Source of the DNA: Cycas panzhihuaensis
Taxonomy: Eukaryota > Plantae > Cycadophyta
Reading direction: 5' to 3'
Assembly: GCA_023213395.1 (NCBI GenBank)
Contig: CM041465.1
Span: forward strand, 89,721,741-89,785,740
DNA: 64,000 nt
How positions within the stretch are numbered: the stretch's first letter is position 1; every line of letters begins with the position of its first letter. Below the pieces are notes generated by a model. That model searched no databases. It was not told the origin of the DNA and was given only the letters and a program-made list of their open reading frames with translations. This document shows, piece by piece, positions 1,886-35,022 of the stretch. Position numbers and translations under genes: made by a program.

Positions 1886-2098
1886 ATGTCCATCTACATC
1901 TTTACCGACGGCGGAAGCCACGGTAATCCTGGACCTTCCGCCGCTGCATGGATTCTCCGTAGCCCCTCTGGACACGATCTCCTCCACTCTGGGATCTTCC
2001 TTCCAGAGGCTACTAACAATGAAGTCGAATATATAGCTATTATTGAGGCCCTTACTAATGCCCTTTATTTCCATTGCGGATCCATCGTTTTGCTTTGC
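1886..2098 (+). pseudogene. Archaeal-type RNase HI (aRH), N-terminal half, interrupted by insertion
   Basis: MSIYIFTDGGSHGNPGPSAAAWIL...ATNNEVEYIAIIEAL contains the first two catalytic residues. The frame continues at 7935 once the insertion and one TSD copy are removed. Confidence 0.9.
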
Positions 2099-2217
2099 TG
2101 ATGGAAAAAATATGGAGCCAAAGTGCTCTGATACCAAATGATGGAAAAATATGGAGCCAAAGTGCTCTGATACCAAATGATGGAAAAAATATGGAGCCAA
2201 AGTGCTCTGATACCAAA
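2099..2217 (-). repeat. 3 tandem copies of a 40-bp unit containing the tRNA-iMet PBS
   Basis: TGATGGAAAAAATATGGAGCCAAAGTGCTCTGATACCAAA at 2099-2138, 2139-2177 (one A fewer) and 2178-2217. Confidence 0.97.
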
Positions 2218-2623
2218 TGTAGGAAAATATGCTTACAAACTAACAGGTTAGAACATATATCAAATAAGTATAAACTAGTATTGCATCAATACAGCAGTGT
2301 ATCACCATTACAATGGCATAAACACCTGAGAGCCTTGTTGTTCAATCCATTGTAGTAGAATGAGTATTACAAATCTTCCTCAAAAGTAGGTAGTGTCTAA
2401 AGACATCAGGGTTGTACACCCCTTAACATTTATAGTTTGGGGGAGGAGGGAAACTCCTCAACCCCTGAATTCAAATTAATAATAAAATAATACTAACTTA
2501 ACTCAAATGGAACTAACTCAACTTACCTTAACTTACCTTGACATGTTGAGCATCACATGTCTAAATTGAGGTGCACAATCTCGGTAGGTAAGAGGGAGTT
2601 GAGTGATGACATTACACCCAACA
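2099..2623 (-). repeat. 3' LTR (includes three PBS-containing units at the U5 end)
   Basis: Core 2218-2623 matches 7525-7929 with 7 substitutions and 1 indel by manual count. PPT lies immediately inside. Confidence 0.95.
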
Positions 2624-2634
2624 TTCTCCCCCTT
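2624..2634 (-). promoter_or_regulatory. Polypurine tract
   Basis: Minus strand AAGGGGGAGAA immediately precedes TGTTGGG of the 3' LTR. Confidence 0.9.
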
Positions 2635-2703
2635 AATGTCAGTACGAACACTTGTATCTTTTCCTTGAACTTGTGGGCGGTACTTGAAAAAAACTTTAAA
2701 ATT

Positions 2704-3324
2704 CTAATCTTGATCTTTGTCAATGCTTCTCACCCTTATAGTCACATATATCTCTTTATTATAGAATGATGTAGGAAGACTATAGGTAGATGAAACTTGA
2801 TGCAAAAGTAGATGAATAGCTATAATTTGGACTTGAACTTTTGTACACTTTATGCTTTGAACAGTTGTCATATCATCAGGTTCATTCTTCGTTATGTCAT
2901 AAGATTCGTCTTCATGATGCTCCCCCTCAAATGGAGGATCAAATCCTTGTGCAACAAGGTGGTCCTGCATTTGATCTGAATCTTCATTGGTGTTGCCGTT
3001 ATGATCTACCTGTTCTGTCACCTGTCTCACATGCTCATCAAAAGTTTCATCAAATACATTGGGGGTATCTCCCCCATAAATAGAAATCAATAAATCCCAA
3101 ACAGGCTTAGATGTTGTCAGTTCAGAAACCAGTGAAAAAATATCATCAGTAATAGTGCAAAATAATAAACCTAAAATTTCATTATCTTTTCTAAAGTTTT
3201 CTTTAATGCTAAGGTCAAATTCATGTTGTAAATACTTTAAAAGATCATGTTCAATAAAATAAGTTTGCATGGTGTCATACCATAGTGAAAAGTTATGGCC
3301 ATCGAAAATGGGGAATTGTGCCAT
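2704..3324 (-). CDS. Truncated Ty1/copia-type Gag (open 206-aa ORF)
   Basis: N-terminus PIFDGHNFSLW..M..Y....DL...L and KD...L..L...I.DDIF........K.VWD.L...Y are typical of the copia Gag N-terminal/UBN2 region. An acidic tail follows, with no zinc knuckle. Confidence 0.8.
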   Translation of the reverse strand: MAQFPIFDGHNFSLWYDTMQTYFIEHDLLKYLQHEFDLSIKENFRKDNEILGLLFCTITDDIFSLVSELTTSKPVWDLLISIYGGDTPNVFDETFDEHVRQVTEQVDHNGNTNEDSDQMQDHLVAQGFDPPFEGEHHEDESYDITKNEPDDMTTVQSIKCTKVQVQIIAIHLLLHQVSSTYSLPTSFYNKEIYVTIRVRSIDKDQD

Positions 3325-5402
3325 TTTGAAAGTAATTTAATCAATAAGAAAATGATGATAAGATCAAGTAGAAATCTTGAGTAAACAATGAGATATAAAC
3401 TAGAATTTTCTTTAAAATTTTGAAAGAAGACAAGCTTTTTAGGATGTATATATATGCTCAACTTTAACAGATTGAAAACTATATTGAATGAGGTCAGAAT
3501 AGCTTAAAATTTTATCAATATGTAGATTGCTGAGATGTGAATCCAATAAAATAAACGGTTTTGAAAATGGATACCAATAAATCACGTTTTGAATGAGGCA
3601 AAGGTATGAACCTCCTTGTGGAGCCTAACAGGAGCAAGGTAGGCAAAAATTGCATAAAAATACTAATTAACCCTTAGAAAAGATGAACAAATGATCAAAT
3701 ATTATTGATGAAGTAATTAATATTCTGCCAATTGAAAATTTTGAAAAATATATTAAACAGTTGTAAAAAATAACAGATTTAGGCCAATAGAATACCTCAA
3801 TTTTGACCGATTTGAAATATAAGAAAAATGTGTCAAAATATATGGAAAAATATATCACAATGAAGAGAATCACCACTTCCCAACGGTTTGACGGAAATGA
3901 AATCTGATAAAAATTGTAAAAGTTATAGTGAAAAATGTAACAAGTGTCTTTATGAAGGATGTTCAAGAAATAGGCAAAAACAACTAAATTTCTTATTTTA
4001 GCGATTAAAATATTAGTGAAGATGAACTCAAAAAATTAAAGTAGAAAATGGGTATTAAAGTTTATATGACGTAGATCACTATAGAGAAAATTTGGGCACA
4101 AAACAGTTTACCAGAAATAAATGACAGCCAGTTCTAAAACTGATTTTGTTAAAAATGTAAAAAATGCTGAAATTTTGAAAGTCCAATGTTAAAAAGGTCG
4201 AAACAAGGTCAAATGGGCACCAAATTGGTCTTATGACCAGTTGAAATCAGAGTACAAAAAATTTCTGATCTATTGGCGTAGGTTTCGTCTGAAACCGATG
4301 AGCCAACAGGAAGTTATGGCCACAAAAGCGCCAATAACCCTATGAAAAATAAAAATTTGAAAAAAAATAAAAGGAAAACGTTTAAAAACCTTTTTAAAAA
4401 TGGGTAGCAGTCACGTGATGGTGAAATAGAACTGAGGGCTGAGAGTTTAAACCCTTAAAATCGGATTTGAAAAAATCATATAATAAATCTTAATTTTTTA
4501 AACTTTATATTATTAAAACAATAGAAAATGATATTCCAGACGCGAATTATAAATCGAAATCTGCACACTTAAAGGGGCTGCACAAATGTAAATAAGAAAC
4601 GACTAATATATAAGAAAAGAGCTATCAATATATTAATGAAGTCGGCTGCCAATATATTAATGGTTGTGCTGTCCGCCGATATAATATATATGTAATATAA
4701 AAGCTGAAAACATTCAAGCGCCTTGTCATACCAACGGGAAAGGACAGATATATAATATAAAAGTCTGAAATGGGAAGATGAAACACAGAGCTGTTAATGC
4801 TGAAAATTTCAGACGCCAATGATAAGAAGTTGTGCCGCTCCCAACGCAGACGAGCGCCGAATGCAGACGCAAACGCCAATGCCAATGATAATCGAGAATC
4901 GCCGACGCCAGTGAAGTACTAGCCGTCTGGCGGGCAAACACGAGCAATACACTAGTTGCGCCAATTCAGGGTTCGAAGCAGAGTGCTGAACGTAATTATC
5001 AATGCAACAAACACGATTGCAATTATTAATGCAACAAACACGATTATTAATGAAGAGTGCGAATGCGATTATTAATGAAGAGTGCGCTGTTATCAAGTGC
5101 TGGACCGTAGGGCACCAGAACAAAACCACCGCGCATTTAAGATGCTAGAAAAGAAACCACCATGCACAAAAATGTGAGAGACGCTGGAAGAGAGACGCTG
5201 CGCAACGCGCCAATAATGAAGCCACTGCGGGCGTCGAGGATGCCAAACGCCATTATTAATGACCACCGCGGGCTGCGCGACGGGAGGAAAATGGGAAGAA
5301 CATTGTCAGTTAAATAGAAGACGAGAGGCACTGCACAGATTGCGCAGATCTGCAAACAATCCGTTGTCGTTGTACCAGAGGAGAGGAGGTTGTGTCACTC
5401 GC

Positions 5403-5846
5403 AACTGTGAGATTAAGAAAATTATATACGCCAAAGCGAATGAAAAGGTCACAAGCGATGTGGATCCTAATTTTTATCTTAAGTATACAGATATACATGT
5501 GAGCGTGCCTTGCGTGGAGCAAGACTTCATGCTAGAGCAGTTCACGCTGCACCAATGCTGGTTGAGGGATATTACATATGGTGCCCCAATCATTGTTGAT
5601 GTTGAATACACAAGAGGGAAAGAGATTATTTGAACGAAAAGAGAAAGAAGGGTAGGGAGCTCTTATAATTGGAAGAATGCCTATCATGCTACGAAGTTGC
5701 CGTTGTGTGCTCAAAAAAAAAAAAAAAAAGGTCTAAACTTGCAAAGTTTTGTAAATGTCCTCTTGATCCAGGAGGCTATTTTGTTGGTAAGGGGACTGAG
5801 AAGGTTATTTTAATCCAGGAATAGCTCTCCAAAAAATCGAATAATA
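5403..5846 (+). pseudogene. NRPC2: Captured fragment of RNA polymerase III second-largest subunit
   Basis: [28 protein letters not shown]...[23 protein letters not shown]...[16 protein letters not shown]...[38 protein letters not shown] and QEQLSKNR are RPC2-type rather than RPB2-type. Contains stops and frameshifts; no intron visible. Confidence 0.9.
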
Positions 5847-5891
5847 TTTTATAGTGTTTTTAACCTGAAGAGCCCTATGGTTGTTTTGTCA

Positions 5892-6060
5892 GATGAAGTG
5901 CAGGTCTTAAAGCATAAGATCTTATGGCTTGAAGCTAACAATGCAGCCCCAAGAAGAGCTACAGGAATGCCGTGATGGCTCTCAACTTCTCGTGGATCGT
6001 GCAATAGATCTATGGTTCAAAGAAGATGAACTTTGTCAATGGATACAAGAACTGAGTGGT
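5892..6060 (+). pseudogene. Captured fragment resembling the plant kinesin-4 (KIN4C/FRA1-like) post-motor coiled coil
   Basis: DEVQVLKHKILWLEANNAA/frameshift/QEELQECRDGSQLLVDRAIDLWFKEDELCQWIQEL resembles the remembered kinesin-4 stalk motif E.Q.LK.KI..LE..N.EL..ELQE.R......RA.D....KD.L...IE. Confidence 0.65.
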
Positions 6061-6077
6061 CAAGTTATATCCTTTAT

Positions 6078-6214
6078 CCAGAGGTCACAAAAGATGTTGT
6101 CACTATTGCAAAAAAATTGAGTTCAAAGACCAAGCAAAGAATGTTGGTGCAAGTCTTGTTAAGCAAGTTGCTAATGCAACCAATGATGCAACTGGAAATG
6201 GGACAACATGTGCT
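6078..6214 (+). pseudogene. HSP60: Captured fragment of mitochondrial chaperonin-60
   Basis: PEVTKDVVTIAKK/frameshift/EFKDQAKNVGASLVKQVANATNDATGNGTTCA matches plant mitochondrial PKVTKDGVTVAKSIEFKDK.KNVGASLVKQVANATNDVAGDGTTCA. Confidence 0.9.
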
Positions 6215-7470
6215 AATAACCTTGCATAATGAAGGACTTCTGGAAAACTATTGGCATATTAGTATGTGTATTTTATTTGTATTTTATAGAAATCGAAGTA
6301 TGCCCTTATTAGCTGAGGATGCAAAGAGGAGATGAAACTCTTCTCATATGCCTATCCTAAATCTATGATGAGCCTAATAATGGCTTCTACTTCCTGATAG
6401 AAAGTAGGAGGAAATGCCCAAAAAATGCAGGGATGTAATAGGAAAGCAGCAGAATGTAGAAAGCAGAATACAGAAACAATATGCCTTCTTTGGCCTTCAA
6501 GATAAACTATCAATAAAATTTTGAGAATTTTGTTGTATTCTTTTGTAAAGAATAAAGTAATTGATAGTTTTTGCACTCCTTTTTAGTCACAAATAAAAAT
6601 GCTTATGTGCATGAGATGTTAAAAAAATATGTAATGTAAAACATATGAGAAATGAAATATCAATGTGAGGAGCATACATTTTTCAAATATCTTGAAGAAG
6701 TATATCAAATAAATGAAATGCACATGTATTTGTATATGAAATATTTCTAAATCTGTGTATATATCAGAAATATGAGTTTAGATATGAAAATGTAATGAAA
6801 AACACAGTAAACGAATGTAATAGATTTATAGCTGAAAATAGGCTTCAAAAACTTCCAATATACAGATCTGCAATGTAATCTTCTCCAAAAATATTGAATA
6901 TGCTCCAGAAACTGTAGATCTGTAAAAAACTTGAAAATATAGTCAAACAATATAATGAAAAATATAGATCTGAAATGGATGTAGCAAAAAATGCTGAAAA
7001 TTTTTGATAAAATAAGCAGATCTATAATAAAATAGCAGATCTGAAGTAACAAATTACAGATCTTTAAAGAAAACTTGATAACTTTTGTATTCAGTTGATG
7101 CTCTTTTACAAATCTGTAAAAAATATCAAATAAATAGACAAATAACTTGTAAACTGTCAAAATATATGATAAATCTGTAGATCTGAACAGAAAATAACTC
7201 AAATATAAGAATAAACTTAGATGTATATCACTTGCTGCTGAAAATCCTTTGTAGATCTGCACAAATCTGAAAATAGATCTCAGTAATATTTGTTGAACCA
7301 GAAATATAGCTCAATAATAATAAAAAATGCTGAAATAATATATAGAACTTGCTAAAAATTTCAGAAAACCAATCTAGTTAATATATATTGCTTGTGAAAA
7401 AAAATCTGTTGTAGAATGCCAGAAGATCCTGTTGATCTTCTTCAAAACTTCAGCAGGTCAGCAATCGCCT

Positions 7471-7482
7471 GCTCTGATACCA
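7471..7482 (-). promoter_or_regulatory. Primer-binding site (tRNA-iMet)
   Basis: TGGTATCAGAGC on the minus strand, 2 nt after the 5' LTR end. Confidence 0.95.
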
Positions 7483-7484
7483 AA

Positions 7485-7929
7485 TGATGGAAAAAATATG
7501 GAGCCAAAGTGCTCTGATACCAAATGTAGGAAAATATGCTTGCAAACTAACAGGTTAGAACATATATCAAATAAGTATAAACTAGTATTGCATCAATACA
7601 GCAGTGTATCACCATTACAATAGCATAAACACATGAGAGCCTTGTTGTTCAATCCATTGTAGTAGAATGAGTATTACAAATCTTCCTCAAAAGTAGGTGG
7701 TGTCTAAAGACACCAGGGTTGTACACCCCTTAACATTTATAGTTTGGGGAGGAGGGAAACTCCTCAACCCCTGAATTCAAATTAATAATAAAATAATACT
7801 AACTTAACTCAAATGGAACTAACTCAACTTACCTTAACTTACCTTGACATGTTGAGCATCACATGTCTAAATTGAGGTGCACAATCCTGGTAGGTAAGAG
7901 GGAGTTGAGTGATGACATTACACCCAACA
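7485..7929 (-). repeat. 5' LTR (one PBS-containing 40-bp unit at the U5 end, 7485-7524)
   Basis: Direct repeat of 2178-2623, followed on + by the TSD TTTGC. Confidence 0.95.
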
Positions 7930-7934
7930 TTTGC

Positions 7935-9063: not shown

Positions 9064-11261
9064 ATATGACTGTTCCTACTTGTTTCTTAAAATCTGCCGT
9101 GGCAATTTCGTATTTATTGCGAAGCTACCACGTGTCCCGTGACTTAACTCGCTCCCAACCATGTCCTAATCACTCGCTTTAGGGTTTGGGTTAGGTACTT
9201 AAGGCATGATCTACTCATTTTTAAGAATTTTTTGGCTCACTTTTTGGATTGCTCCTCAAGGAAACCACGCTGTGCTCTGCTCTTCTCTGTTGTCCTACTG
9301 CTACCATAGGACCTGCGTCTCTCCTACAGCATCCAGCTCTCCTTCGGTGTGGCAAGGACATCTTCCCAGCCCTTCACACACCTTAGAGAGGGCCCCTTGG
9401 AGAGATTTCAGTAGATTCTTGCCTCGGGCAGTCTTCAAGTGTTCCAAGTGTAGGTGTTCTCCTTTCAACTTTACTAGCAGGGTCCCAAACCTGCTACACT
9501 ACAGTTCTAGGCTGATTTCTCAGCCTCCCCTTGCCAGCCCTTGGCTGAGGCAAGCACCTTTCCTCCTCCACTCAGGTATTCATTGATTTGAGTTGTTTCT
9601 CTTGTGCTATTGACGCCCTAACTTGCTTGATTCTTTCTTGTCTTTGTGAGGGTTGTTTTCCTCTTTACATTAGGTTGTTCTACCTCTCTTATAGTGCCTC
9701 CTACCTACATTTGTTGCTCAAGGCAACGGTACTAAGGGTTGACATAAGTTTTGGGAAGGAGCTGGGTGGATTCCGCACCACCTTCCACGCTCCTCAAGTG
9801 GCTTTAAGCCCCCCAAATCTTCCCTCTTGCCTCGTGCTGTCCTTGGCACTCAAATGGGGGTTTGTTGGCCCTCTTTTAGCCACTGAAATCAGCGTTGTCA
9901 CAGGTTGCAGTGCTGGTTTGAGGACTTAGGCTTAGGTCCAGGCAACTTACGTAAGTCTCGACCGCTTGTTCTTGTCTAACTCTTTTTCCGGCAGCCCGGT
10001 TTGCTCTCCATAGCACCCCGATTTTTCGTAGGTCTTCTTTGGCTCCTTTTCACCCCCTTGTTACTATTTCCAGCCATCTCTCTTGGCCTTGCCCTCACTG
10101 CCTTATGGATTTTGGGGGGAGGTTAGGGTGTTCTTTGCAGGAGGTGGGCCACTCCGAGGCTTACCGGTTACTTTCCCTTCGCTTCGGTTGTCCTTTTTCA
10201 TATATTATCATCATTGTGTTGGTGCTAACATATACGTGTTTGAATTCATATTTGTATTATATAGACATGTATTATTAAGATCTCGCCATTGCATGTTAGT
10301 ACCCTTTCTCTGGAAAGGGAGAGGTCGTCGTTGCTTGCAGGTGCTTGGAGAGCGTGAAAGGTATTTTCTGCTTGTCCCATTCTTGGTAAGTGCTCCTACG
10401 CATGTTGTACTTTCATACTTCTTTAGTCACTAGTATTTAGTTCTTTTCTTTCCTTGGTATTGTACTTTAGTATTTTTCCAAGGAAGGTAAGGGAGCCCCT
10501 CTTTCCAATCCGCCATGACGCTTCGCACCCAACACACCTTGTAGAGTAGTTTGGTGTCCCTTGGGAGGGCCTTCGTCGCGCACGCCTCCAGTCCAGGTGC
10601 ATGCCTCACTCCACCCTACTACTCTTTTCTTTTGAATTCCTTTTTAGTAATTAACTCATCGGAGATCAAAAGGGAAACTTAACTTTGCTTTCGGTTTACA
10701 CTTTATTTGTTTTATTGCATGCATTTCTGCCACCCATAGGAAAAGGTCATAGGAACTGCTCCTTTTCACCTTTCCTCTCTATCTTAGCCATGCGAGCTTT
10801 TTGCCCTCCGTATTACTCGTATTGCCCAGTTAGTTTGCTTAGGCATACCTTGACCCATCTTCTTGGATCATTCCTCTTGCTTTCATTTGGTTCCCCGCCT
10901 CACCGGATAACCAAAGTGACCCCATCTATAGGCCAGTCGTTTGCCTATCCTTCTCCGTTTCCCGTTGCTTTAGGGAAACCCTTGAAGGCTCCTCCCCTTT
11001 CCCTTCCGGCCATCCAAGGGTGGAAGGATCCTTCCTTTAAGTCAACCCAGGCTAACCCTACGCCTCCTCACCCTTTGTTCGAAGTGGTGGAGAATCACCC
11101 TTTGGTAGCCACATTCCATCAGTGTCCCGAACTCAAGGCCTGTGCATGTGGTGCCCTGCGTGGTAATTACCCTACTTATAGGTCTCTTTCTTGATCACAT
11201 TATCACCCACTCTTACCACACTTATTTAGTTAGGTAGCTATCCCGTAGATGCGTGTCCACA

Positions 11262-14200
11262 TTGGTTAAGCCAAAAGGTATGACTAGGAATTCATAATGG
11301 CCTTCATGGGTGCAAAAAGCTATTTTATAAGCATCAGCAGCCTTGATTCTAATTTGGTAATATCCAGATTTTAAATCTATGGTGGTGAAAAGGGTTGCTC
11401 CATTCAATTCATCTAACAACTCACCAATCACTAGTATGGGAAATTTATCTTTAATAGTAATTTTATTTAATTCCTGATAATCCACACACATATGAAAGGA
11501 TCTATCCTTCTTTTTAACCAATATTACTGGTGCCAAAAATGTGCTTTTACTTTCCCTAATGGACCTAGCTTCAAGAAGTTCATGCACCAATTTTTTAATT
11601 TCATTCTTCTACTGATAAGGATATCTATAAGGTTAGATGCTAGGTAGATTGCTACTGGTAATGAGTTCAATGGCATGATCTTGTTCCCTTTTTGGAGGAA
11701 GCCCCTTAGGAATTCCTTCGAAAACCTTGCTATGTTTGACTAACACTTCTTTCAATTTAGGTGTTAGATTATTGTCCTTATGAAGATCTTCCTTTGCTAC
11801 TAACTCATGCCCTTCTAATGCATAACATCTAGCTATAAGTCTTATTCCTCCTTTTCTTAGAAGCTTATCCATCCTATGTGAACTAATGACCTATGATGGA
11901 GGTGGGCTAATTCCATTAAGTTGGTATTGTTGCCCTCCTGAGTTAAAACAGATGAATAATTCCTCCAAGTTAAGTTGAAAAGTACCTAATGTTTTCAGCC
12001 ATTGTACTCCCAAAATCACATTGTCCCTCCTACTAGAATGACATACATTAAGGAAGCCAATTGGTAATCTCCTATAGTCATTTTAATATTATGGCATTTA
12101 CCTCCACAGGCTAATGTACCACCATTGGCAACCATAACTTGAAAATTCTTAACTGGATAAGGAAAACAATTTAGTTCTTCTGCAAGTTTTGTATTGATAA
12201 AATTATGGGTGCTTCTTGAATCAATTAAGACGACTACCATTTTCTTTTTTAATGTATCCTATAATCTTGAACGTTTGTGGAGCTATAATCCCTACTAAAA
12301 TATGGGTAGATATTGTCACTGCGTTCTCTTCTTCAATGCCTAGTGGTTTGGGAGTAATATCATCTTCTACAATGGCTTCTTCTAGATCTTCTTCCTATGT
12401 ATCTTCAATGATGAATAGTCATCTTTCTGAACATTTATGATCTTTATTCCACTTCTCATTACATCAAAAATAAATACCCTTTAGCCTTTTCTCATCCATT
12501 TCTTTAGTTGTCATCCTTTGTGTTGTAGGAATGTATGGGCTTTTCTTTTCCTCCCCCCATCCTATTATATTTTCAGGTAGCCCTATTTTTAGCTTCAATT
12601 TGTCGAGCTACTATGATTGCTTCTGTTAGGATACTCGGTTTCAACAAGCACAATTCATATCATATATCTTCTTTTAAACCCCTAATGTAGAGTTCAAGCA
12701 ATTTTTCATTACTGAGATCATCAACTAAGGTGGCCAGTTTTTGGTGTTCTATAGTGTATTCTGATATTGTTCCTTCTTGTTTTAGTTTAACCAACTGACT
12801 AAAGTAGTCATCATTCTAAATATTAACAAATTACACTGAAAGATCCTCCACAAAAGTTTCCCACTTGTATGATATTCCTTCACACTTCTTCTTTATCCAT
12901 TGGTACCACTGGAAGGGTTCTGATTCCATATGTAAAGAAGCTAAGATGATTTTTTTATCAAATGGTACTTAGTGAAGACTAAAAAATTGTTCCATTTGGC
13001 TGACCCAAGTCCTCACATCTTTCCCATTAAATTTCCTAATTTCCACTTTAGGGAGATAACGGGATCATAGCCCTCCTTGGTCATGGTGATCACATTCACT
13101 CCCTATCTTATCCTTCCCCTTCTAAGATCCTTCATTATATTTTTGTAATCTTAATTGACTTGTAATCTTTCAAAGGTTTTCGCTAAAATTTTTCAATATT
13201 ATCTTTAACCTTACCCATCCTTAAGCTCAATTCTTCTATTACATTGGTATTTTCATCCTTCGTTGGGTCATTTTTTAGGGCCATTGTTACAAACCTGATC
13301 GAAGTTGAATGTTTGCTTTATAAAAGGTATATAGAAAAATGTATTTACCAAAGGTAACCCAACTAGGGTTTAGTCACTGGAGTCAAACTAATGAAGACTA
13401 ATAACACAGGGCTTTCTAAGTCTAGGATTATCTAGTTTGTAGGCCCTCTGATATACTGATCCCAGTCGTAAATAGTATCGACTTGTAGAGGCTAACTCTC
13501 TACTCTACAATCGTATAACCCCGTCTCTAGGGTACATGGAGAGTAACTTCTTGGGGCTAACTGCTTATCAATGTACTACAAATTACAGACGACTGACAAG
13601 TCTCCTATGGTTACCTATACTAGGAATGCCTATCAAGGGGGGTTCTCCCATATACTCGTAGGTACGTAGGGGCTTAATTCTGTAGCTGAGTTCTGTCTAA
13701 GGCTTAGTTTAGGAGTCCTTCACACAAGGGCAAAAAAATTAGCCATAATATGCTTATCCAAAAATGACAGTTCCTCATGATATTTATAGACCCCCGGTAC
13801 AGGTTCTCTAGCCTAGATCAACAAAAAAGATTATGAACAAAAAGTAAACTACTGTAAATTATTAAGAGAAAATGACAAAACTATTTCTCTCTAAAAAACA
13901 TATAGTTGAAAAATACATAAAATATGGATTAAAATGATGGCCTCTAAAAATATAATTCTAATAGTTCAGATGAAATTGAATTCTGATATCTAGATCATAA
14001 GTTATGACTCTTTCAAGAATTTCATTGTTAAGGTTTCTAAGGACTACAATAGTACCTACTAGTTAAATATAAATAACCTTTTGTTATGAGCTCCTATCAA
14101 CTCAAAACTACTTCCATCAGAAAGTAAATTAGATAACACACATAATCAAAAAATAATTTGAGGTCATTTGGATACCTATAGCCAAAGTTATGGTTCTTTG

Positions 14201-15671: not shown

Positions 15672-18600
15672 TAAAAGAGAATAAAGAGTACAGAGAGAAA
15701 TTAATACAAAAACTAAACATCAAGATCCACAAGAATAATATTTCTTTAATTAGTTTGTAAAACTCAACATATATCTCAATCATATATTTCATGAGACCAC
15801 CACCCATTGACTTCATCAAGGTACATAACGAATCAATAAATAAAATGTAAGTTCCAATAACCTATGACAAGGAATTACATAAGGTTAAATTAATAACTCT
15901 TTTAACACTCCTTCATAATTTATTGTCTCTTATAATAAGAAGCTTTATAACAGTTTTAAAATTTTCATGACCTAATGCTTTAGTAAGAATATTAGCAACC
16001 TCATCTTCAATTAAACAATAAACCAACTCTATTATTCTATTTTGTACTTATTCTCAAACAAAGTGACGTGAATTTTAATGTACTTTATTCTTACATAAAA
16101 AATAGGATTTTTGATAGTTTAATTATGCTTTCACTATTATAAAATAATGGTGTAGAATAAGTTTTCTCTAGTCCAAAATGGTTAAGAAGTCTTCTAAGCC
16201 AAATTACTTATGAAGTAGTTGAAACAATTGCTTTGTATTCAACTTTAATTGATGATAGATAAATAGTAGCTTGTTTCTTACTACACCATAAAACTATGTT
16301 AGAACTAAGAGTGAGTGCATACCTCAATGTAGATTTTCTATCATCTACATATCTATCCCAATCAAAGTCAATGAAACCTGTAGCTTGAACTTATTAGATT
16401 TAAAAAACACAAGTCCAAACTTAATAGTTCCTCTAATATACCTCAATATATGCTTTGTCACTTGCCAATGAGAAATACTTGGAGAACTTATAAATTAAGA
16501 TACAACTCCAACAACATAGCAAATATTAGGTCTTATGTAGATAAGACTACACACTAATTACCTATACAAAGTTGCATCAATAGTATTGTTGCCATCTTAT
16601 TTGGAGAGTTTGTAACCAACTTCAAAAGGAGTTACCACTAGCTTGGATTCTTCCAAATGAAAATGTCTTATAAATTATGAGCACACTTTGATTTTGAAAC
16701 AAAGATGCTATTATTTTTTTTCCAAATTCCTAGAACAAGATAATAGTGCAGGAAACCAAGATCTTCCATCTTGAACACTTTTCAAAGCTATCATTTTAGA
16801 TTTTTAATGTTTAACATATCACATCCTATAATGACAAGTTCATCAACATAAAGAAGAACTGTGACTATTTCTTCATTCTCAATCTTCATAGATAAACTAT
16901 GATCAGATTCATATCTGATCCAAGTGATAGTAAGCAATCACCAATGCATGAATACCATACTCTTGGTGGTTATTTAAGCTTATAAAGAACATTCTTCAAT
17001 TTGTAGATAAGATGCTCTTTTCTAAATTGCACAAAGCCTTTAGGTTGATCTATATATACTTCTTCATCAAGAATGCCATTAAGAAAAGTAGTCTTAATAT
17101 CCATCCAGTGTAGCTCTCAACCAAAATAAGATGTAAAATAAATGAGTATTCAAAATTAGGAGTAAATATTTCATTGAAATTATCTTGTATAGTTTGTGTA
17201 TAATCTTTGGCCAGAGAATGAACTTTATACTTGTCAATCACATAATTAGATTGATACTTCAACCTGTAAATCCATTTACAACCAATAATCATTTCATATT
17301 TAAGAAGTTCAACAAAATCCCAAGTTTCACTTTTAAGGATAGACTTATACTTGTCCTTCATATCATTTTTTAATGAGTAGAATCTTTTGATTTATTATAT
17401 GACTGAGGTTTATTAGTTCTTAAGATATTAGACATTAGAGAAAAAATTACTTTACTTCCTATCTTAATATCTTCATCAATATTTAAGTCTTCCACATAAG
17501 AGTCCTTTACAATTTATAAATAACATTTTGGTAATTTCCTTTCAAAAGAAGAAAGAGAAGAAGAGGGTTGTTGTGCCCCTTGTATAATTTCAAAAGTAAG
17601 AAGATCTTTTGTAGTTTTGTTGTTGTCTTTAGGGGTCATGTTGTTAATGGGTTCTAATACATCAAAGGGGACATCTCTATTAATTACAACCTTCCTTTCT
17701 ACTAGATTCCATAGTCTATATGCTTTAGATGTTTCATAATATTTAATAAATATGCATTTTAGGCTTTTATCATATAACTTATGCCTTTTTGGATCATGAA
17801 TATAAGCACAAGTTGTACATCTAAATACTTGAAGATTACAAATAGTGGGCTTCTTACTAGTTTAGTATTCTTAGGAGTTTTGTTCTAAACTACCTTTGTG
17901 AGACTTTTGTTTAGAATATATATAGTTGTTTACATTGCTTCTCCCCAAAAGGCATTTATAGCATTTTTACCCTTAAGCAATGAATAAACCATTTTTGCAA
18001 TTGTGATTTCTTTCTTTTAGAAACTCTATTTTGTTATGGAGTATATGATACTAAAAATTATTGTTGAATGCCATAATTCTTATAAAATCTAATAAAGTCA
18101 TTTGATAAATATTCACCTCTACCATCACTTCTTAAAATTTTGAGCTTCTTGAAAAGGTTTTCTACTTCAAATTTGAATTCTTTGAACCTAGAAAATACTT
18201 TTTCCATTGAGTTTAATAAGTAGACCGAAGTCTTTCTTGAGAAATCATTAATAAAGGTCATAAAAATTTTTGATCCTCTAAGTGAAGCTAGTGTGATTGG
18301 TCTATGAAGATTAAAATGAACCAATTCTAGTTTGTCACTTGCTCACTAAGTGGACTTAACAAATTTATCTCTATGTTATTTTCCTAATGTACAAACTTCA
18401 CAAACCTTTTTACTTTTCTTAATAAAATGGAAATCATGTATCATATTCAACTTACTTAATAACTAGAGACTATGGTAATTCAAATGACCAAAACAATCAT
18501 GCCATAAACTATTAAAAGAAATTCTAATTATAAGTCCAAGCCCACATATTCTAGAGAATTTATACATACCATTCTCATGGATAACTTGAGAAATTAGATG

Positions 18601-21566
18601 ACCATCTTTTTCAATAAAATATGAAGATTTGTCAAGCACGATTCTCATTTCATTTGATATAATATGACTTACAAAAAGTAGGTTAAATCTCTTTGAAGGT
18701 ATATAAAGGACATTAGTGATCTTAAAAATAAAATCATACTAGTGAATTATAATCAAACCTCATCTAATAGTAACATGTTGACTTTTGTCATCCAAAAAAC
18801 TAATTGGTAAACATCTTTGTAAAAATCATTGGACCACTCTTCACGATGAGAAATGTGGTTAGAATAACCAGAATCAACATACCATGTGACTTACTCTTTA
18901 GTTAAAGTATAAAGCACAAATGTTTTATCCTTATTAACATATAAGGTAGTGGTCTTACAAGCCTTTTTAATAGTTACCTTATTTTTCCAACACATCTTTT
19001 CAAGATGTCCTTGTCACTCATAGTAATTATAGATAAAATCTTTTATAGGCTCAGGTTTGGATTGGCTTAAACTTTAAACCTAAGAAGTTTGAGTACTAGT
19101 TTGAACTAAACCAAGACTTACTTTCTTTTTAAACTTTGATGCCAATGCCATGTTGTTTCAACTGCTACCATCAACATAGCCACCAATTCATTATTCTTCA
19201 TATAAGAGAGCCCATGTAAGCTCCTTAAAAGTACGAGGATTAGTTCTTTATGTTAATCATAAACTAGTCACAAAAATGTGAAATCCTTCATGCAAACTAT
19301 TCAACATGATACTCATTAGTTCTTTATCACTTATTTCCTTATTAATATCTAATAACTTATCCTTGATTTCTTTTAGTATCTACAAATGCATTGAAATTGA
19401 ATCACTAACCACCATCAAATGCAATTAATTTCTTAGGTATAATACCCTAGTTTCATTCTTGATCTCATACAAGTCCATTAGGGTTTACCATGCTTCAAAT
19501 GAAGACCTTTTTCCTTGAAGATAAACAATGAGATAATCTATAATAGATAAACCAATAATCACAAGGGCTTCACGATCATAATCTTTCCATTCTATAAGTT
19601 GTTTTAGGAATGCTAGTGGTTTTTTTCTGCTTGTTAGAAGTTGAAGGTTTCTTCTTATCTCCATCATCAGGCTTCCTAACATCACTCTTTTCATTGTCTT
19701 AATCAAGACGAGGTTTCTTTTCCTCTCTAGCTATAATCTTTAATAATTTCTTTAAAGCTAGAATATTAGAAATTTTAAATTTCCAAATATTGTAGTTCTT
19801 TCTATTTGGTTTACTTGATTAAGATAAAATATAACCAACAATGTTGATGTTAATATATTAAAAAGATGTACTAATCAACAAATTTAATGGCCTAGTTTAG
19901 TTGTGCTTAAGGTTTGGTATCAACTTGCTATACTAGAACTTAAAGGAAAAATTCTTATGTAGTCAAAAAGAACAACTTCAAAATGAAATAATTGTAATAG
20001 ATTATTGAAACTTAGCTAATTTTAAAATAATTAATGGTTTCCCTTATCTTCAAATCAATAATTCTTTGGAAAAGAGAGAATTGCAACTGGTGATTGTCCT
20101 AGCTTTAACAAAACTCAAAAAAACTTCCTTAAAGATTAGAAATATTCTCTACGCTAAATTTGGTATCAATAGAAAATTGTAAAAGAAGACTTTCTCCAAA
20201 TTTGATAGTAATACACAACTCCAAAAATCTATGATATCCCTCTATAAATTGTATGGATAGATAAGAATTTTCACAAGACACCCTCCAAATTTTGAAAATT
20301 CCAAGAAACTTCTAACATCCCACTACAACTTTTATGTTGGAGAAGAGAGATGCTAAGAGTAAGAGGTTCATATCACTAGTTAATAACTCCAAATCTGGTT
20401 GTAGGATAGACACTTATGGTTCTATCAATCCCTTAGATAAGAGAAGAATATCTCATGCAAAATCCTAATGGAATCATTGTCATAATTTCTTTCCATAAAA
20501 AAGACCTCTAGTAAATTTATTTGGCAATATCTATGGTAAGAGAAAAATGTCACATGTAAGCATTCCTTAGTGACTAGAGAAATTCAAAACATCTAGAACA
20601 AAATAACTAGATATTTGACAAACATATAATGTCATACAAACTTGTTAATCCCTCCTTAGTGGTTATAAATCATCAAGTTAATAATTTCACTAAATACCAA
20701 ACTTCAAACTAGTAGAAATAAAGAAAAATCCCAGGATAATAGACTTTGAACTAGTAGAAATGAAGAAAGATCCCATCCTCAGTGACTATGGACAAATTCC
20801 ACTATACAAATGGATAGGATCCAAACAAATTTGATAGGAAATCTAGTCAAATCATCTTCAAACTTATGTGTGTCAAATTTATAAGTAACTTCAAACCTAC
20901 AATTTGCTTCCAAATCTATGGGTCTCTTCAACTGGCAGGCATCTTCAACTGCAGATGAGTTTGTGGAAATAAAAAATCTCACATGTAGGGCATAAAACCC
21001 TTAACTAGAGTGCTAAGAAGAAATCTTGAATATGAAAAACACCATAAATAATTTAGGCACAAAACCCTACAATCAATATTAGATGAAAAGAAATGGAACT
21101 TTTGTTGGAACAAATAATTGCTACTATATTTGACGAAGAAAATGAAAAAGAAGTTATAAATGGAGAAACACTAAATATTTCATTATTTTATGAAAGAGAA
21201 AATAATGATAAAGGAATCCATGAATGAAATACAAAATTTACAATGAAGAAGATTTTTTAATCTACCTTATTATGACCATACAATATGAAGAAAGCACAAA
21301 GACTATTGACTTTATTTAGGCTCTAATACCATGAAAGAGAACCAAAAGTATAAATAGAAATCAATACAAAAATTATATACAAAGATCGACAAGAATAATA
21401 TTGCTTTAATTAGTTTGTAAAAATCAATGTACATCTCAATCATATGCTTCATGAGACCACCACCTATTGACTTAATAAGGGTGCATGAAGAATTAAGAAA
21501 CAAAATCTAAGTTACAATGACCTATGACAAGGAATTACATAAGAATAAATTAATAACTCTTTAATA
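15672..21566 (-). mobile_element. Degenerate full-length Ty1/copia element
   Basis: LTRs 15672-15907 and 21332-21566 (about 235 bp), PBS 21320-21331. Remnants of gag (about 19750-19000), GAG-pre-integrase (LWHDCFGHLN), integrase (FINDFSRKT..Y, LKILRSDGRGEY), RT (TWDFV, IGCKWIYRLK) and RNase H down to about 15950. Many stops. Confidence 0.9.
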
Positions 21567-24478: not shown

Positions 24479-27400
24479 TATTAGAATAATATCCATTATA
24501 TAGAAACATGTGTGAGAGGTACCTTGGGAAGCTGCGGGCCATCACCAACTGACCTTGAGCCATCTCAAGCTAACCTTAAGCCACCTGCTAACTAACAAGG
24601 TAAGTTTTATGTTTTAATTTATTATTTTTTTTATTTTTTACTAATGTTAAGTTGAGGCGGTCTCCTACCTCCCCAAAATCTCTTTATATATTGAGAGTAC
24701 CTCCTTGGTGTTTTTTAACACCACCTTCCTTTCTTGGAGATTTGATTAATTTTTTTAAGTTATGGTTTAGTATGTAAACGATTTACTCTATCCTCACTCC
24801 AACATTTAATATCACCACTCGATTTGATAAGTCTATGTGAAGCAATCAATACTATTTGATAATATAAAGGTTATTATATAGTTTTGATTTAATTTTATTA
24901 AGAGCTTTTGGATCTACAACTTTGTATAAAGCATGTGTACATCCACATTATTGTATGAATTTCTACAACTCCCATGATTAAAATGAGCTTATTTCTTATA
25001 GGATTCTCAGCCTTAATTATCCTATCATGATCTAGAGTAGCTTTGTTAAGTTCTTTTTAAGATTTCTATTGTTTTTTCATCATTTTTTAAAGTTTTCAAG
25101 TTGATATAGCTTATCTTATCTTTAACAATCTACTACTCATTTATATTATGACTACTTGAATTGATCTTGGCTGAGTCTTCTCTTTAATAGTGAAGACAGT
25201 TTGAAATTTTATCAAGCCTTTGCCAAGATATTACTCTTGGAAGCTTAGTGTCCTCACAGTTTTTATAAAACCTCACTAATTGTCCCTCTATTTTTTTGCC
25301 TATTTATTCATTTTTTCTTTAATTTTTTGTCATATCCTTGTATGTCCAGGTCCTACACCCTCCTCAAATCTATTCATCAAATTCTTTAGCTCTCCCATAG
25401 ATTGATTTGATCGATTCTATAGGTAAAAAGCATATTCTAATTGATTTAAGGCCATTACATTTGAAAGTTTGAAGGTGCATTATAGTGCATAACTATAAGT
25501 TTATTTTTGGCTCTTTTAAGTATCTCAAGGTGTGTTTCATTACATAACTACATGATTACTTCATAAGCCTTTATTTTTAGATTCATATAAATATTATCTT
25601 TTGAAAGGATCATTGTTTGAATATTATTTTTATTCCAAAATGATATATGCGTTACAATTTTTAAGGAATTATTTAGCTATTTTGATTAAAAAGGAATTTG
25701 ATGTACTTTTTACAATATGGATTGAATACAATATTTGAATGTGTATTTATAATATGGCTTGAATACATGTGTTCATCTGCTCCACTCTCATCTCCAATGA
25801 GCCTATAAACCTTCTTAGGGACTAGGACACTTATCAAACTTTATTTTAGATAACTATAACTTTAAGGACATTTTATTAAAAAGATATTTATCAAGACTTT
25901 AGTTAAGATACAATGGTAGCTAATTTTGACAACATGATTATTCCTAAGTTTGATGAATCTAATTTCTTAAAATAAAGTAGGAAGATGAGACCCATCCTCA
26001 TCACTAAAGACATGTGGGATATTGTGAGAGTAGGATACATAAAACTAAGACAAAATACAATCGATCCAGAGAAACTAGCATTCAAAGAAAATGCAAAGAA
26101 GGATAATAAGACCCTTGCATTAATATTTTGTGACCTAGAGGATCACATATTTCTTAGGATAAGTAAGGTAACAAAATCTAAGGAAGCTTAGAACACCTTA
26201 CAACTAATTTATAAAGGGGTAGCTTCATCCAAGTTACAAACTTTGGAAAGTAGGTTTGAGATCTTAAGGATGATGCCTAACGAATCAATTATAAAATTCA
26301 TGACCAAGGTTCAAGTCCTTATTAATCGGATGAGATTCCTTGGAGAAACATTAACTAAACAAAGGGTTGTTAAGAGAATTATAAGATGTGTTAGTGAAGT
26401 AAAAAGATTTGAAATGGTGGCAACTGATATAGAGGTGTCAAAGGATTTGAGTATCTTGAAAACTAAATAACTAAGTGCCATGTTAATGGAAGTTGAGGAG
26501 AAGAAGAATATAAATGAGTCACATGAGTATGCCTTTGTAACCAAGACAAGGATATAATCAAACTCACAAGCTAGAACCTCTAAATCTAAGGACTAATCCC
26601 CAAGGGGGAGAGAAGGAAACCCTAAACAAGAAATATGTTAAGAAAAGCAAGCAATATATCAAGCTCTACATCAAAGACATCAAGGAGAAAACTAAAGGAA
26701 TCCTAGCCATAATCGATATCAAAGTCAATAAAGACACCATAGGGTAAATCAATGTTGCCATAATTGCCAAGGGCACATGCATTCTTAAAAGACCAACTTT
26801 AACTATCCTAATAATAGATAGAGGGATAACCAAGCTCTATATTTAGAAAGAGAAAAACCATATAATATTGATAGAACTAATCCTCATAGTAGGAGTCTTA
26901 GTTATGGGAGAAGGGACTCACTTCACTACTCATTTTACAATAGAGTTGGTCACATAGAAGATAAATATTTTGCCAAGAATGGTCCACCCACTAAGGGAAG
27001 TGCCAACACATTTGTAGAAATAAAGGAGAATGATCAACTATTCTTATCAAGTTTTATTAGTCATGAGGAAGAAGATGACAGTTGGTATATTGATTCCAGT
27101 TATTCCACCCATGACCCACAAATAAGATATATTTTAACCCATGGATAGAACTAGAAAAAGGTCTATTATATTTGGAGATGACACCTCTCATAAATCTATT
27201 GGTAGAGGTAATATTATCCTAAAGACTAAAGTAGGTGAATATTGACATCTTAATGATGTACTCTATGTTCCAACCTTGAAAAAGAATATTTTATTAGTAA
27301 CACAAATGATGGATCAAGATTACAAAATTATATTTGGCAATGGTGAATGCACCATTAAGGATAAAAGAAAGAATAAGGTGGTAGTTGTTAAAGGTGAAAT

Positions 27401-30396
27401 GACCAAAGATAGACTCTTTAAGCTAGTTCTCACCCCATTCAGATAACTATTCTTTAAGAATTATAATCAAACTTGACAGTGATATATGGCATAAGAGATT
27501 TGGTTATTTAAACTATAATAATTTGGCACTTATAAAGAAAATAGACATGGTTGATGGGTTACCTCACATTGAAGTGGATAATAATATTTGTGAAGGGTGT
27601 CTCCTAGGAAAAAAACATAGAGAAATTTTTTCGAATGGTAGTTATAGAGCAAAAGGGTCACTCCATCTAGTCTATATAGATCTTAATGGTCCCATGGATG
27701 TTCCTTCACTAGTAGGTGCTAAACATTTTCTTATATTCATTGATGACTATACAAGGAAAACTTGGGTCTACTTCTTAAAGTTTAAGTTTGATGCTTTCCA
27801 ACACTTTGTTGATTTTAAAACCTTTGTGGAGACACAAAGTATACATAAGATACTCCTCTTAAGATTATACAATTGGAGATAGTTTATCTTAAATGAGTTT
27901 AAGACCTACTGTACACATCATGGCATTAGGAGACAACTCACAAATCCTTATACCCCTCAACAAAATAGGGTGGCTAATAGAAAGAATCAAATCATAGTTG
28001 AGATAGATAAGTGCATGTTGAAAGATAAAAGATTAGGACATGAATTCTAGGATGAGGCTATCCACACAACTATTTATTTACTCAATAGATGTACCACCAA
28101 AGCCCTTAGGTGGATGACACCTGAAGAATCATGGACTAGATATAAACCTAGTATCCACCATTTAAGAGTTTTTGGTTGCCTATCTTATGTCCATTTCCTT
28201 GAACAAAAGATGACTAAGCTAGATGATAACAGTAACAAATATGTATTTATTAGCTACAATGATGCTTCCAAATCCTATAAAGTTTATGATCCAAAAACAT
28301 GAAAATTCATAGTGAGTAGGGATATTACATTCTAAGAAAATGATTGTTATCACATTGATTATGATTAAGACAAAGGAAAAAGTGTTATGATAAACCTTGA
28401 TTCAACCACTAGGTCCACATATATACCACCTAAGTAGGACCCAAGACAAACTATTGATGTACCAAGTAGGGAGGGAACCTCCTCTCAACCTCTACCATAA
28501 AGATTTCCTAGATGATTTCAAAGGAACCATAATATGCTATTTTAGACAATGATTATACTAAAAGATCCATTCATTCCCATAGGATGAATTTTTCCATTAT
28601 GAGTCAAGTCATGGAGACTCATGAGCCTCATGCCTTTGACGAGGCTAACACACATGATGATTTGAGAAAATCCATGGAAGAGGAATATAATTCCATAGTG
28701 AAAAATGATACATGGGAACTGATTGACCTTCCTCCCAACAAAAAAGCTATTAGTACCAAATGGATCTATAAGACTAAATTATGATCTAATGGATCAATTG
28801 ATAAATATAAGGCTAGACTCATAGCCAAAGATTATGCCTAAAGGGAGGGCGTAGACTATAGCTAAACCTTTGCTCCTATCACACACATAAAAATTGTTCG
28901 CATGATGTTGAGTTTGGTTGCACAAGAGGGATAAGATGTTCACCAAATGGATGTCAAAAGTGCATTTCTTAATGGGTATATTGAATAAGATATTTGTGTC
29001 TATTAACCCAAAGGTTTTAAAGTTAGGGCGGAAGAAGACAAAGTGTACAAGCTAAAAAAGTCACGTTGTGGACTAAAACAAGCACCCAAGGCATGGTACT
29101 CCTAAATCGATAAATACTTTAGAGACTAAGGATTTGAAAGAACCCAATTGGATCCAAATTTATACATCAAGATCAAAGGAGACTCCATCCTAATAGTGAG
29201 ACTTTATGTAGATGATCTTATCTACATAGAAAATGACTTCCATCTTTCACAAAAATTTAAGGATAATATGTGTAAGGAGTTTGAAACGATAGATTTGGGC
29301 TTGATGCATTACATCTTAGGTTTGGAAGTGTGGCAAGACAAAGACGACATTTTCATTTCCTAAAGAAAGTATACCTTGGACTTACTCCAAAAGTTCAAGA
29401 TGAATGATTACAAAGCCCTAACCATACATGCTAAAGTTGGTATCAATTTATCTAAACTTGATGATTCTGCACTAGTGGTTCCTACTCTCTATAGATAATT
29501 AATTGGTAGCCTGATTTATCTAATATTAATATGACCTGGCATTATGTAGGCAATCAATGTAGTTTTAAGATTCATGCAAGATCCTAAGTCCACACATTGG
29601 CAAGCAGCTAAGAGGATCTTATGATACTTAAAGGGTATAATAGAATATGGGTTATACTATAAATCTTTACCAAACCTTAGGTTGATGGGATATACAGACT
29701 CTAATTAGGCAAGATATATTGATGATAGGAAATCTAGTTTAAGATATACATTTAGGTTAGGTTCAGCATCTATAGCATGGAGCACAATGAAACATAATAT
29801 CATTTTCCTATCTACAGTAGAAGTAGAGTACGAATCAATAATTTTACGAGTATATGAGATAATATGGTTATGACGACTCCTCTAAGATCTTTAGATGGAA
29901 TAGAAAGGCCTAACTAAGATTTAGTATGATAATTAAAGCACCATTTAGATGACTTAGAATCTAGTTTTTCATGGTAGAACTAAGTACATTAAAACTCAGC
30001 ATCACTTCATTCAAGAATTAGTCCAAGTAGGTGAAATTGAGTTGGTATATTATAGTACAGAAGACCAAATAACAAATATCTTCACAAAGTTATTGGGAAG
30101 AATCAAGTTCCATAAATTTAGAGATAAACTTGGAGTTTTACACAATAGACATTATTAGGGAGAATATTAGAATAATGTTCATTATATAGAAACATGTGCA
30201 AGAGGTGCTTCGAGAAGCTGTGGGCCACCACCAACTAACCTTGAGCCCCCTTAAGTTACCCACTAGCTGACAAGGTAAGTTTTGTAATTTTAATTTATTA
30301 TTTTTAAAAATTTTTACTAACCTTGGGTTGAGGCTGTCTCCTGCCTCCCCAAAATATATTTATACATGGGGAGTACCTCCCTGGTATTTTTTAACA
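24479..30396 (+). mobile_element. Degenerate full-length Ty1/copia element with non-canonical PBS
   Basis: LTRs 24479-24720 and 30165-30396, PPT AGGGAGAA before 30165. Gag from 25913 (IPKFDESNF), protease WYIDSS.STH, integrase CEGCLLGK..FIDDYTRKTWVYF, RT LYVDDL, RNase H to about 30145. Confidence 0.92.
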
Positions 30397-31299
30397 CTAG
30401 GCTTTATAGTGCCTTTAACTACTCTTCCATAACTTCTACATTCATTGGCATAGCTTAAAAGAGATTTATTAGGTTCTTATTCGCTTTATAATCTTTAAAT
30501 AAACTTTAAATAGTGAAAAAAAAAAGGCCTCACATAGGTTCTAATCATCTTTCAACTTTCTCCACATCAACATTCAATGACTTTGGAGTATTTCTCTTGT
30601 TACCTCATGATCTTTAAATGACCTTTAAATGGCTTAAAAAAATGTCTCACATAGCCTTTTATTCAATTCAACTCTAAACCTACTCTAGCTCAGTTACATA
30701 TCTCCATCAACTATGATATAATATGAAGAAACATTCATACATATTTTCTTAACTACAAGATCTTGATTATACACAATAAGTATTTAGAAAATAGTGCATA
30801 GGTATTTATATGGGAAACCTTTATGGGAGAAAATCCATAGTCAAACTCATAATAAATTCATTATATTAAAATATTGCATGGACTTGTGACCTATTAGGAT
30901 CACTCAACCTTGGTGGTTAAGCTTATTAGGGCCTGATGCATCTTAGTATGTCATACATCATTCATGTTCAATATTTGATAACCTATATAGGATTCATATT
31001 TATAATATCCTAAGAGGTACATCTAACTAATGTTTGTGACTCATAATTATGTCCTATGACCTTTTGTCATGTCTCATAACTCTTTATTATGTCTAGTTGA
31101 ATCCTCAATACCCATATCTCTTTGTATTTAGTTAATCCACATAAGTCATTAACCTAATATAAAATTAGCTTCAACTAAGTTTCCTAATATATCATGTGAT
31201 TATAATCCTAAAATCTATGTACCAAATATTTATCTCACCAAAAGATAATGTTGATACTAAAAATAATAAATACTCATCTAATTTATCACTTAAATCATT

Positions 31300-34994: not shown

Positions 34995-35022
34995 TATATA
35001 TATATATATATATATATATATA
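34995..35022. repeat. (TA)14 microsatellite inside an LTR
   Basis: Read directly; the sister LTR has only a short TATATAT at about 44736-44742. Confidence 0.95.

What the first reader, a model, noticed from the sequence alone, without database searches (positions are those of the whole stretch)
5403..6214. Young gag-only LTR element carries a chimeric cassette of three host-gene fragments, antisense to its own transcript
Seen: fragments of NRPC2 (5403-5846), a kinesin-4-like stalk (5892-6060) and mitochondrial HSP60 (6078-6214) lie almost end to end on the + strand. They sit between the PBS and gag of a minus-strand element with a perfect TSD and about 98% identical LTRs. No intron is visible in ~440 bp of NRPC2. 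Known: LTR elements can capture spliced mRNA pieces (maize Bs1 carries three), and template switching between co-packaged RNAs is expected to give sense orientation. Inference: all three pieces are antisense and broken by stops and frameshifts that seem too many for the LTR age, so the cassette probably moved as non-coding cargo. Element transcripts would be antisense to three housekeeping mRNAs, giving a possible siRNA source or a shield against silencing. One target is a subunit of Pol III, which makes the element's tRNA primer.
Basis: partly seen in the sequence, partly recalled or inferred. Interest (0 to 1): 0.8.

Follow-up and report, generated by a model that had tools for sequence, protein, structure and literature searches.

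The report
Gag-only retrotransposon carrying dead gene scraps
A young plant jumping gene that encodes only a short coat protein carries broken, backwards pieces of the host genes for RNA polymerase III and the chaperone HSP60 (plus a third piece of unconfirmed origin), and these are likely old, passive hitch-hikers of a kind already known to be common in large plant genomes.

Summary
The element is real: 2099-7929, minus strand, 5-bp TSD, LTRs 1.6% apart, Met-type PBS, PPT, a short copia gag and no pol (TR-GAG-like). NRPC2 (5403-5846, three frameshifts, two stops) and HSP60 (6078-6214) are confirmed and antisense to the element. The kinesin-4 label for the middle piece was not confirmed by any search. 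Genomic contigs of four organisms cover the cassette region at 2.6-13% divergence, and in two of them contigs bridge cassette junctions. The regulatory idea has little support. Contig depth (a hint, not a copy number) puts cassette-bearing copies at about 1% or less of a huge family; antisense capture is unbiased in maize copia elements; and published surveys found no amplification gain for capturing elements. Intron loss, transcription and siRNAs were not tested. One unexpected hint: depth falls stepwise from the PBS to the cassette and returns abruptly at 4403, beside the element's best-folding RNA stretch. This suggests stepwise capture at one site. New member of a known kind.

The parts
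2094..2098 (.). Left target-site duplication (5 bp)
   Evidence: Identical to 7930-7934
1886..2098 (+). RNase H frame of an older retroelement, interrupted by this insertion
   Evidence: PF00075 E 6.7e-8; the frame reads on for a short stretch after 7934 (by eye)
2099..2623 (-). 3' LTR (525 nt), ending in three 39-40-nt [PBS copy + LTR-end] units at 2099-2217
2624..2634 (-). Polypurine tract
   Evidence: sequence
2704..3324 (-). Short copia-type gag (about 206 aa, UBN2 / Retrotran_gag_2), no pol
   Evidence: PF14223 E 5e-6; a 205-aa relative at 55% identity, P0112
4150..4403 (-). 5' edge of the family-wide pre-gag block; best-folding stretch of the internal RNA (predicted; candidate packaging or dimerisation element)
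   Evidence: z -3.5; the two lowest z of 47 windows, -3.26 and -2.55; depth changes 93-234-fold at 4403/4404 in 4 of 4 runs
4404..5402 (.). Low-depth non-coding segment with short internal repeats and one copy of the element's own leader motif (4796)
5403..5846 (+). NRPC2 (Pol III second subunit) fragment, about residues 48-193 of the Diphasiastrum protein, no intron; frameshifts near 5628, in the A-run 5713-5729 and near 5833; stops at 5653 and 5822
5847..5891 (.). 45-nt spacer of unknown origin
   Evidence: sequence; also present in X4 record 15
5892..6066 (+). Middle piece, frameshifted; kinesin-4-like by recall only, with a weak alternative match to an NDP kinase C-terminus
   Evidence: negative; E 0.034
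6078..6214 (+). HSP60/chaperonin fragment, one frameshift near 6110
   Evidence: E 1.2e-7 over 6107-6217
6215..7470 (-). AT-rich leader with degenerate repeats; depth rises stepwise towards the PBS
7471..7482 (-). Primer-binding site (initiator-Met type; the type is recalled)
   Evidence: sequence
7485..7929 (-). 5' LTR (445 nt, TG...CA), with one [PBS copy + LTR-end] unit
7930..7934 (.). Right target-site duplication

Best explanation
This is a young insertion of a gag-only, copia-type LTR element whose long leader holds broken antisense pieces of NRPC2, HSP60 and a third gene, likely picked up one at a time by ancestors of a rare sublineage and since copied passively as neutral cargo. Shown: the element's anatomy, the identity and broken state of two pieces, their antisense orientation, and diverged copies of the junctions in other organisms. 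Inferred: the element borrows pol from an autonomous partner. Captures would happen during reverse transcription, by template switches at or near the folded block that begins at 4403, so new cargo lands next to it and older cargo is pushed towards the PBS (HSP60 first, NRPC2 later). The antisense orientation likely reflects the templates, namely read-through RNAs that cross processed pseudogenes or genes on the opposite strand. Repair of a genomic copy with filler DNA would give the same picture. No function for the host or the element is needed.
For: Anatomy. Age: LTRs differ by 1.6%, while 17 listed contigs over the cassette and its near flank differ from the window by 2.6-13.3%, median 8.3% (4 further listed records left of 4801 were left out). 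Junctions in other organisms: flank/NRPC2 is bridged by 4 listed records in 2 studies (X4 records 11, 12; X5 records 19, 20); NRPC2/spacer/middle by X4 record 15; and X7 records 29-31 form a chain overlapping by 30 nt over 5844-6239. X4 record 13 and X5 record 22 are 6 nt shorter than the window over 5604-5780, which still leaves them out of frame against intact NRPC2 (inferred from lengths), so the frame was lost before the copies split. Rarity: summed contig depth over NRPC2 is 0.04-0.09% and over the non-genic right flank 0.7-1.7% of the pre-gag block in 4 of 4 runs (a hint only). Order: depth rises monotonically from 5294 to 7429 (Spearman 0.98-1.0, 4 of 4 runs). Literature: multi-gene LTR chimeras that are re-copied (Bs1; PMC5131818 section 10); 13.68% of capturing TEs hold two or more fragments (PMC13477047 section 12); no orientation bias in Sireviruses and no amplification after capture (10.1101/777037 passages); RNA hairpins promote strand transfer in retroviruses (PMC3187697 passages).
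Against: Donor genes were never seen, so intron loss and junction microhomology are untested. X5 record 21 starts exactly at the NRPC2 edge (5402), is 13% diverged and runs 226 nt without a break; if it is the donor gene, that half has no intron. Simple minus-strand switching onto mRNA predicts sense pieces, and a review says transduced sequences are usually sense (PMC7264820 part 1). Summed contig depth is not a copy number, the tool drops human-like records in conserved genes, and only 32 of about 76,800 laid records were listed. The staircase could also come from rising constraint near the PBS or from repeated AT-rich motifs. No single listed record bridges the middle/HSP60 junction by the 31-letter rule. 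LTR gene conversion could make the insertion look younger than it is. The fold is a prediction on one sequence.
Confidence: 0.65

Rival explanations
1. The three pieces were joined elsewhere (a chimeric processed pseudogene, or a Pack-type or Helitron cargo) and entered the leader in one event, then travelled as neutral cargo.
For: One capture explains the shared orientation without needing three antisense events; the pieces lie within 45 and about 11 nt of each other.
Against: Depth differs between the pieces (the HSP60 bin is 4-14 times the NRPC2 bins in 4 of 4 runs). That fits stepwise gain, though donor paralogues and pseudogenes could inflate it. No TIR or TSD flanks the cassette.
Confidence: 0.22
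2. The antisense cassette is kept because it makes siRNAs against housekeeping genes or shields the element from silencing.
For: The orientation would give RNA complementary to the mRNAs. Cross-talk siRNAs and raised donor methylation are documented. Maize TEs with captures were older and mapped fewer siRNAs.
Against: Depth hints that carriers are about 1% or less of the family. Copies differ by a median of 8% with indels, which shows no sign of constraint to match the mRNA. No amplification gain in maize and no methylation gain in Platycladus. Three of three antisense has p = 0.125.
Confidence: 0.08
3. The cassette is a later insertion unique to this copy.
For: No listed contig over the cassette region matches the window at 99% or more.
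Against: Junction-bridging contigs at 6-11% divergence in two other organisms; no flanking TSD or TIR, and the element's own leader motif lies on both sides (4159, 4796, 6986, 7322).
Confidence: 0.03

Closest known systems
TR-GAG non-autonomous LTR retrotransposons (Chaparro et al. 2015, PMC4350172; parts 2-3 of 6 read)
   Same: TG...CA LTRs, 5-bp TSD, PBS, PPT, a single copia UBN2 (PF14223) gag and no pol.
   Different: 5.8 kb against under 4 kb; gag of about 206 aa against 433 aa in TR-GAG1; a 4.1-kb leader with host cargo; PBS copies inside the LTR ends.
Maize Bs1 and LTR-mediated retrocopies (PMC5131818 passages and section 10; PMC13317346 parts 1-2 of 6; the Bs1 papers themselves were not read)
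   Same: Partial copies of several host genes inside an LTR element, low copy number, re-copied with shared junctions.
   Different: Bs1's pieces form a transcribed and translated chimeric gene; here the pieces are antisense to the element, out of frame and upstream of gag.
Gene fragments captured by maize Sirevirus copia elements (bioRxiv 10.1101/777037, passages) and by gymnosperm TEs (PMC13477047, abstract, passages and section 12)
   Same: Decayed exon fragments in LTR elements, in either orientation, sometimes several per element, with no clear gain for the element.
   Different: I saw no positional order or capture hotspot in the passages read. The host here is a non-flowering land plant by best hits, but its clade was not resolved.
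Antisense additional ORFs of Grande, RIRE2 and Retand (PMC7264820, part 1 of 3)
   Same: Antisense coding-like sequence inside an LTR element.
   Different: Those are conserved in most copies, lie after pol and have no host counterpart; these are broken, host-derived and likely rare.

Membership tests
TR-GAG | LTRs with TG...CA ends, 5-bp TSD, PBS and PPT | tested here: met
TR-GAG | Gag domain only, no protease, integrase, RT or RNase H | tested here: met
   PF14223 E 5e-6, 26.5 bits against a cut-off of 27; no pol domain in 84 of 84 segments
TR-GAG | Length under 4 kb (1-6 kb in the paper's second search) | tested here: not met
   5831 nt: fails the 4-kb rule and fits the 1-6-kb window. Single-contig joints suggest that some relatives lack about 2.9-3.3 kb of the leader. 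Filed as TR-GAG-like, not as a strict member.
TR-GAG | Two or more dispersed copies with the same gag-only layout | tested here: inconclusive
   Very high contig depth from PPT through gag in 4 of 4 runs and a 205-aa gag relative, but no second full-length copy was seen
LTR-mediated retrocopy (Bs1 type) | Partial host-gene copies flanked on both sides by element sequence | tested here: met
LTR-mediated retrocopy (Bs1 type) | Intron loss relative to the donor gene | not testable with these tools
   No genome held; no intron map found in papers. That plant NRPC2 is intron-rich is recalled only.
LTR-mediated retrocopy (Bs1 type) | Microsimilarity at the switch points | not testable with these tools
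   Donor DNA and a cassette-free copy were not available
LTR-mediated retrocopy (Bs1 type) | Secondary retroposition with shared junctions | tested here: met
   5 listed contigs in 2 studies bridge cassette junctions at 6-11% divergence, against 1.6% between the LTRs; their insertion sites were not seen
LTR-mediated retrocopy (Bs1 type) | Co-transcription from the LTR, often sense and in frame | tested here: not met
   Orientation and frame only: the pieces are antisense and broken. Transcription itself was not tested.
Kinesin-4 (middle piece) | Significant sequence match to a kinesin-4 protein | tested here: inconclusive
   No hit; a chance repeat hit; weak NDP kinase match; the pieces are 22-38 aa, near or below detection
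Nested Pack-type DNA transposon or Helitron | Own TIRs and TSD, or Helitron ends, around the cassette | tested here: not met
   No inverted repeat of 11 nt or more across the flanks, and the direct repeats found are leader motifs. Helitron ends were only screened for the short end motif.

The most novel reading that the evidence does not exclude
The family has a polar capture hotspot. Reverse transcriptase would switch templates at the edge of a folded packaging or dimerisation element at about 4403, so that each new piece of foreign RNA is written next to it and older pieces move towards the PBS. The leaders of this very large family would then be ordered records of past captures, here all antisense, readable across several species.
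Probability: 0.25. Interest if true: 0.65.

Novelty: new member of a known kind. Interest (0 to 1): 0.32.

Why it matters
As cargo it is one more case of a common process; a conifer genome holds on average about 480,000 capturing TEs. It would matter more if the stepwise pattern held. How plant LTR elements capture gene pieces, and why copia captures show no sense bias, is open, and a huge multi-species family with one capture site beside a folded RNA element would make that directly testable from assembled copies.

Tried and rejected
No genome is held, so family copies and donor genes could not be collected. Read-level tests of donor exons and transcripts remain open. Kinesin label: word search, representative search (the one hit is a tandem-repeat artefact at 31% identity), PDB, Pfam, Atlas (no answer), and motif searches in kinesin-paper supplements (no occurrence; file unreadable, and it may hold the sequences). 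Intron map of NRPC2: two searches and passages 66, 68, 71, 73 gave none; the maize NRPC2 paper is not held. Further captured pieces in 3334-7484: none in Pfam beyond NRPC2 (4 weak hits below cut-off among 84 segments), though Pfam also missed HSP60, so small pieces can hide. Rfam: 3 matches, all below gathering score. Host clade: a 17-row tree of one 76-aa piece gave no supported placement. Acceptor-like sequences before the middle and HSP60 pieces were considered; the HSP60 one overlaps coding codons and was dropped, the other is undecided. Look-alikes in earlier scan notes: none. Novelty searches listed no TR-GAG with antisense multi-gene cargo and no polar capture site, judged from titles and abstract starts for most rows; the library lacks most subscription papers.

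Full report
Element. The window is retroelement-rich DNA; no genome is held. An element spans 2099-7929 on the minus strand, between identical 5-bp target duplications that interrupt an older RNase H frame. The LTR cores match at 438 of 445 positions with one gap, 1.6%. A Met-type PBS (type recalled) lies at 7471-7482 and a PPT at 2624-2634. The only coding region is a copia gag of about 206 aa (PF14223, E 5e-6, just under cut-off), with one 205-aa relative at 55% among 37 candidates. No pol domain appeared in 84 six-frame segments. This fits TR-GAG (PMC4350172, parts 2-3 of 6) except for the 4-kb limit.

Cassette. 5403-5846 is NRPC2: the only PDB hits are RPC2, and the best relatives are liverwort, lycophyte, conifer and fern proteins at 72-79%. 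It is colinear over 148 against 146 codons, in four frame pieces with two stops. 6108-6214 matches chaperonins (48 hits, best E 1.2e-7). The middle piece resembles a kinesin-4 stalk by my recall, but no call confirmed this, and the one weak signal pointed to NDP kinase (E 0.034). All pieces read on the plus strand, antisense to the element. The host is probably a non-flowering land plant with a large genome; the tree did not place it.

Other copies. Twenty listed runs from 12 studies and nine organism labels hold part of the element, none half or more. I laid four genomic runs from four organisms and four studies (about half of each large run was read, and 32 of about 76,800 records were listed). 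Of the 21 listed records in 4350-6300 I scored the 17 from 4761 onwards: 2.6-13.3% different from the window, median 8.3%. Four records in two studies bridge the flank/NRPC2 junction and one bridges NRPC2 to the middle piece. Three X7 records chain across 5844-6239, though none bridges the middle/HSP60 junction by 31 letters on each side. Copies descended from this insertion should differ by no more than about the LTR divergence, so these are likely other insertions. Two records are 6 nt shorter over 5604-5780 and by length still out of frame. The cassette therefore predates this insertion and was likely already dead. No TIR or TSD flanks it, and the element's own leader motif lies on both sides.

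How common. Summed contig depth is about 1e5 over LTR and gag in the three large runs, but 3-45 over NRPC2 and 54-733 over the non-genic right flank: 0.04-0.09% and 0.7-1.7% of the pre-gag block in 4 of 4 runs. The tool warns that depth is no copy number and that human-like records in conserved genes are dropped. The non-genic flanks show the same contrast, so I read it as an order-of-magnitude hint that carriers are a small sublineage.

Pattern. Depth rises monotonically from 5294 to the PBS (Spearman 0.98-1.0, 4 of 4 runs) and jumps 93-234-fold at 4403/4404. The stretch just downstream of that edge in the element's RNA folds best of 47 windows (z -3.26 and -2.55; z -3.5). Hairpins promote strand transfer in retroviruses (PMC3187697 passages). 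The simplest reading is repeated template switching near this element, with older cargo nearer the PBS: HSP60, then the middle piece, then NRPC2. This is inference; graded constraint, or repeat motifs that attract contigs, could give a similar slope.

Orientation and function. Switching onto mRNA during minus-strand synthesis gives sense pieces, and transduced sequences are said to be usually sense (PMC7264820 part 1). But maize Sirevirus captures show no orientation bias, and capturing TEs did not amplify (10.1101/777037 passages); three of three antisense has p = 0.125. In Platycladus, capturing TEs were not less methylated, and across 23 vascular plants 13.68% of capturing TEs held two or more fragments (PMC13477047 section 12). 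Against my reading, donor genes in both studies are more methylated, so passive cross-talk is possible. I favour antisense-read templates such as read-through RNAs over processed pseudogenes; filler-DNA repair cannot be excluded. Intron loss is untested: no intron map was found, and one 13%-diverged contig starts at the NRPC2 edge and runs 226 nt unbroken. Transcription and small RNAs were not tested.

Verdict. Real, mostly as described, and best explained as neutral Bs1-like cargo (PMC5131818 section 10) in a TR-GAG-like family. Similar gag-only families are known in sugar beet (PMC13570524 passages). New member of a known kind, interest 0.32. The polar-capture reading is the part worth following up.

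Noticed in passing
window 2099-2217 and 7485-7524: The LTR's U5 end carries 39-40-nt units, each a PBS copy plus a copy of the LTR end: three in the 3' LTR and one in the 5' LTR. The TSD abuts the third unit. This would arise if a parent with several units primed at a downstream PBS and the plus-strand transfer annealed at an upstream one (inferred). Contigs with back-joints at 7549 to 7511 or 7470 show other unit variants (table 5c). One search listed no paper.
   Followed up: partly
window 4150-4403 (minus strand): Predicted folded RNA domain at the exact edge of the family-wide pre-gag block; candidate packaging or dimerisation signal lying 3 kb from the PBS.
   Followed up: partly
window 1886-2098 and 7935 onwards: The insertion site is an archaeal/bacterial-like RNase H frame (PF00075, PF13456) in a GC-rich older retroelement.
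   Followed up: no
window 15674-21562, 24479-30397, 37584-44338: Three older copia elements with LTR pairs 85-93% alike and decayed gag, integrase or RT domains; a Ty3/gypsy-type RT fragment lies at 11222-11605.
   Followed up: no
window 34644-52008: Long direct repeats 75-82% alike at spacings of about 5.46, 9.7 and 15.7 kb, probably the large LTRs of old nested elements.
   Followed up: no
window 4870-5270: GC- and CpG-rich segment with short repeats (27-nt and 21-nt units) that has no Pfam or Rfam match; possibly a further captured piece.
   Followed up: no
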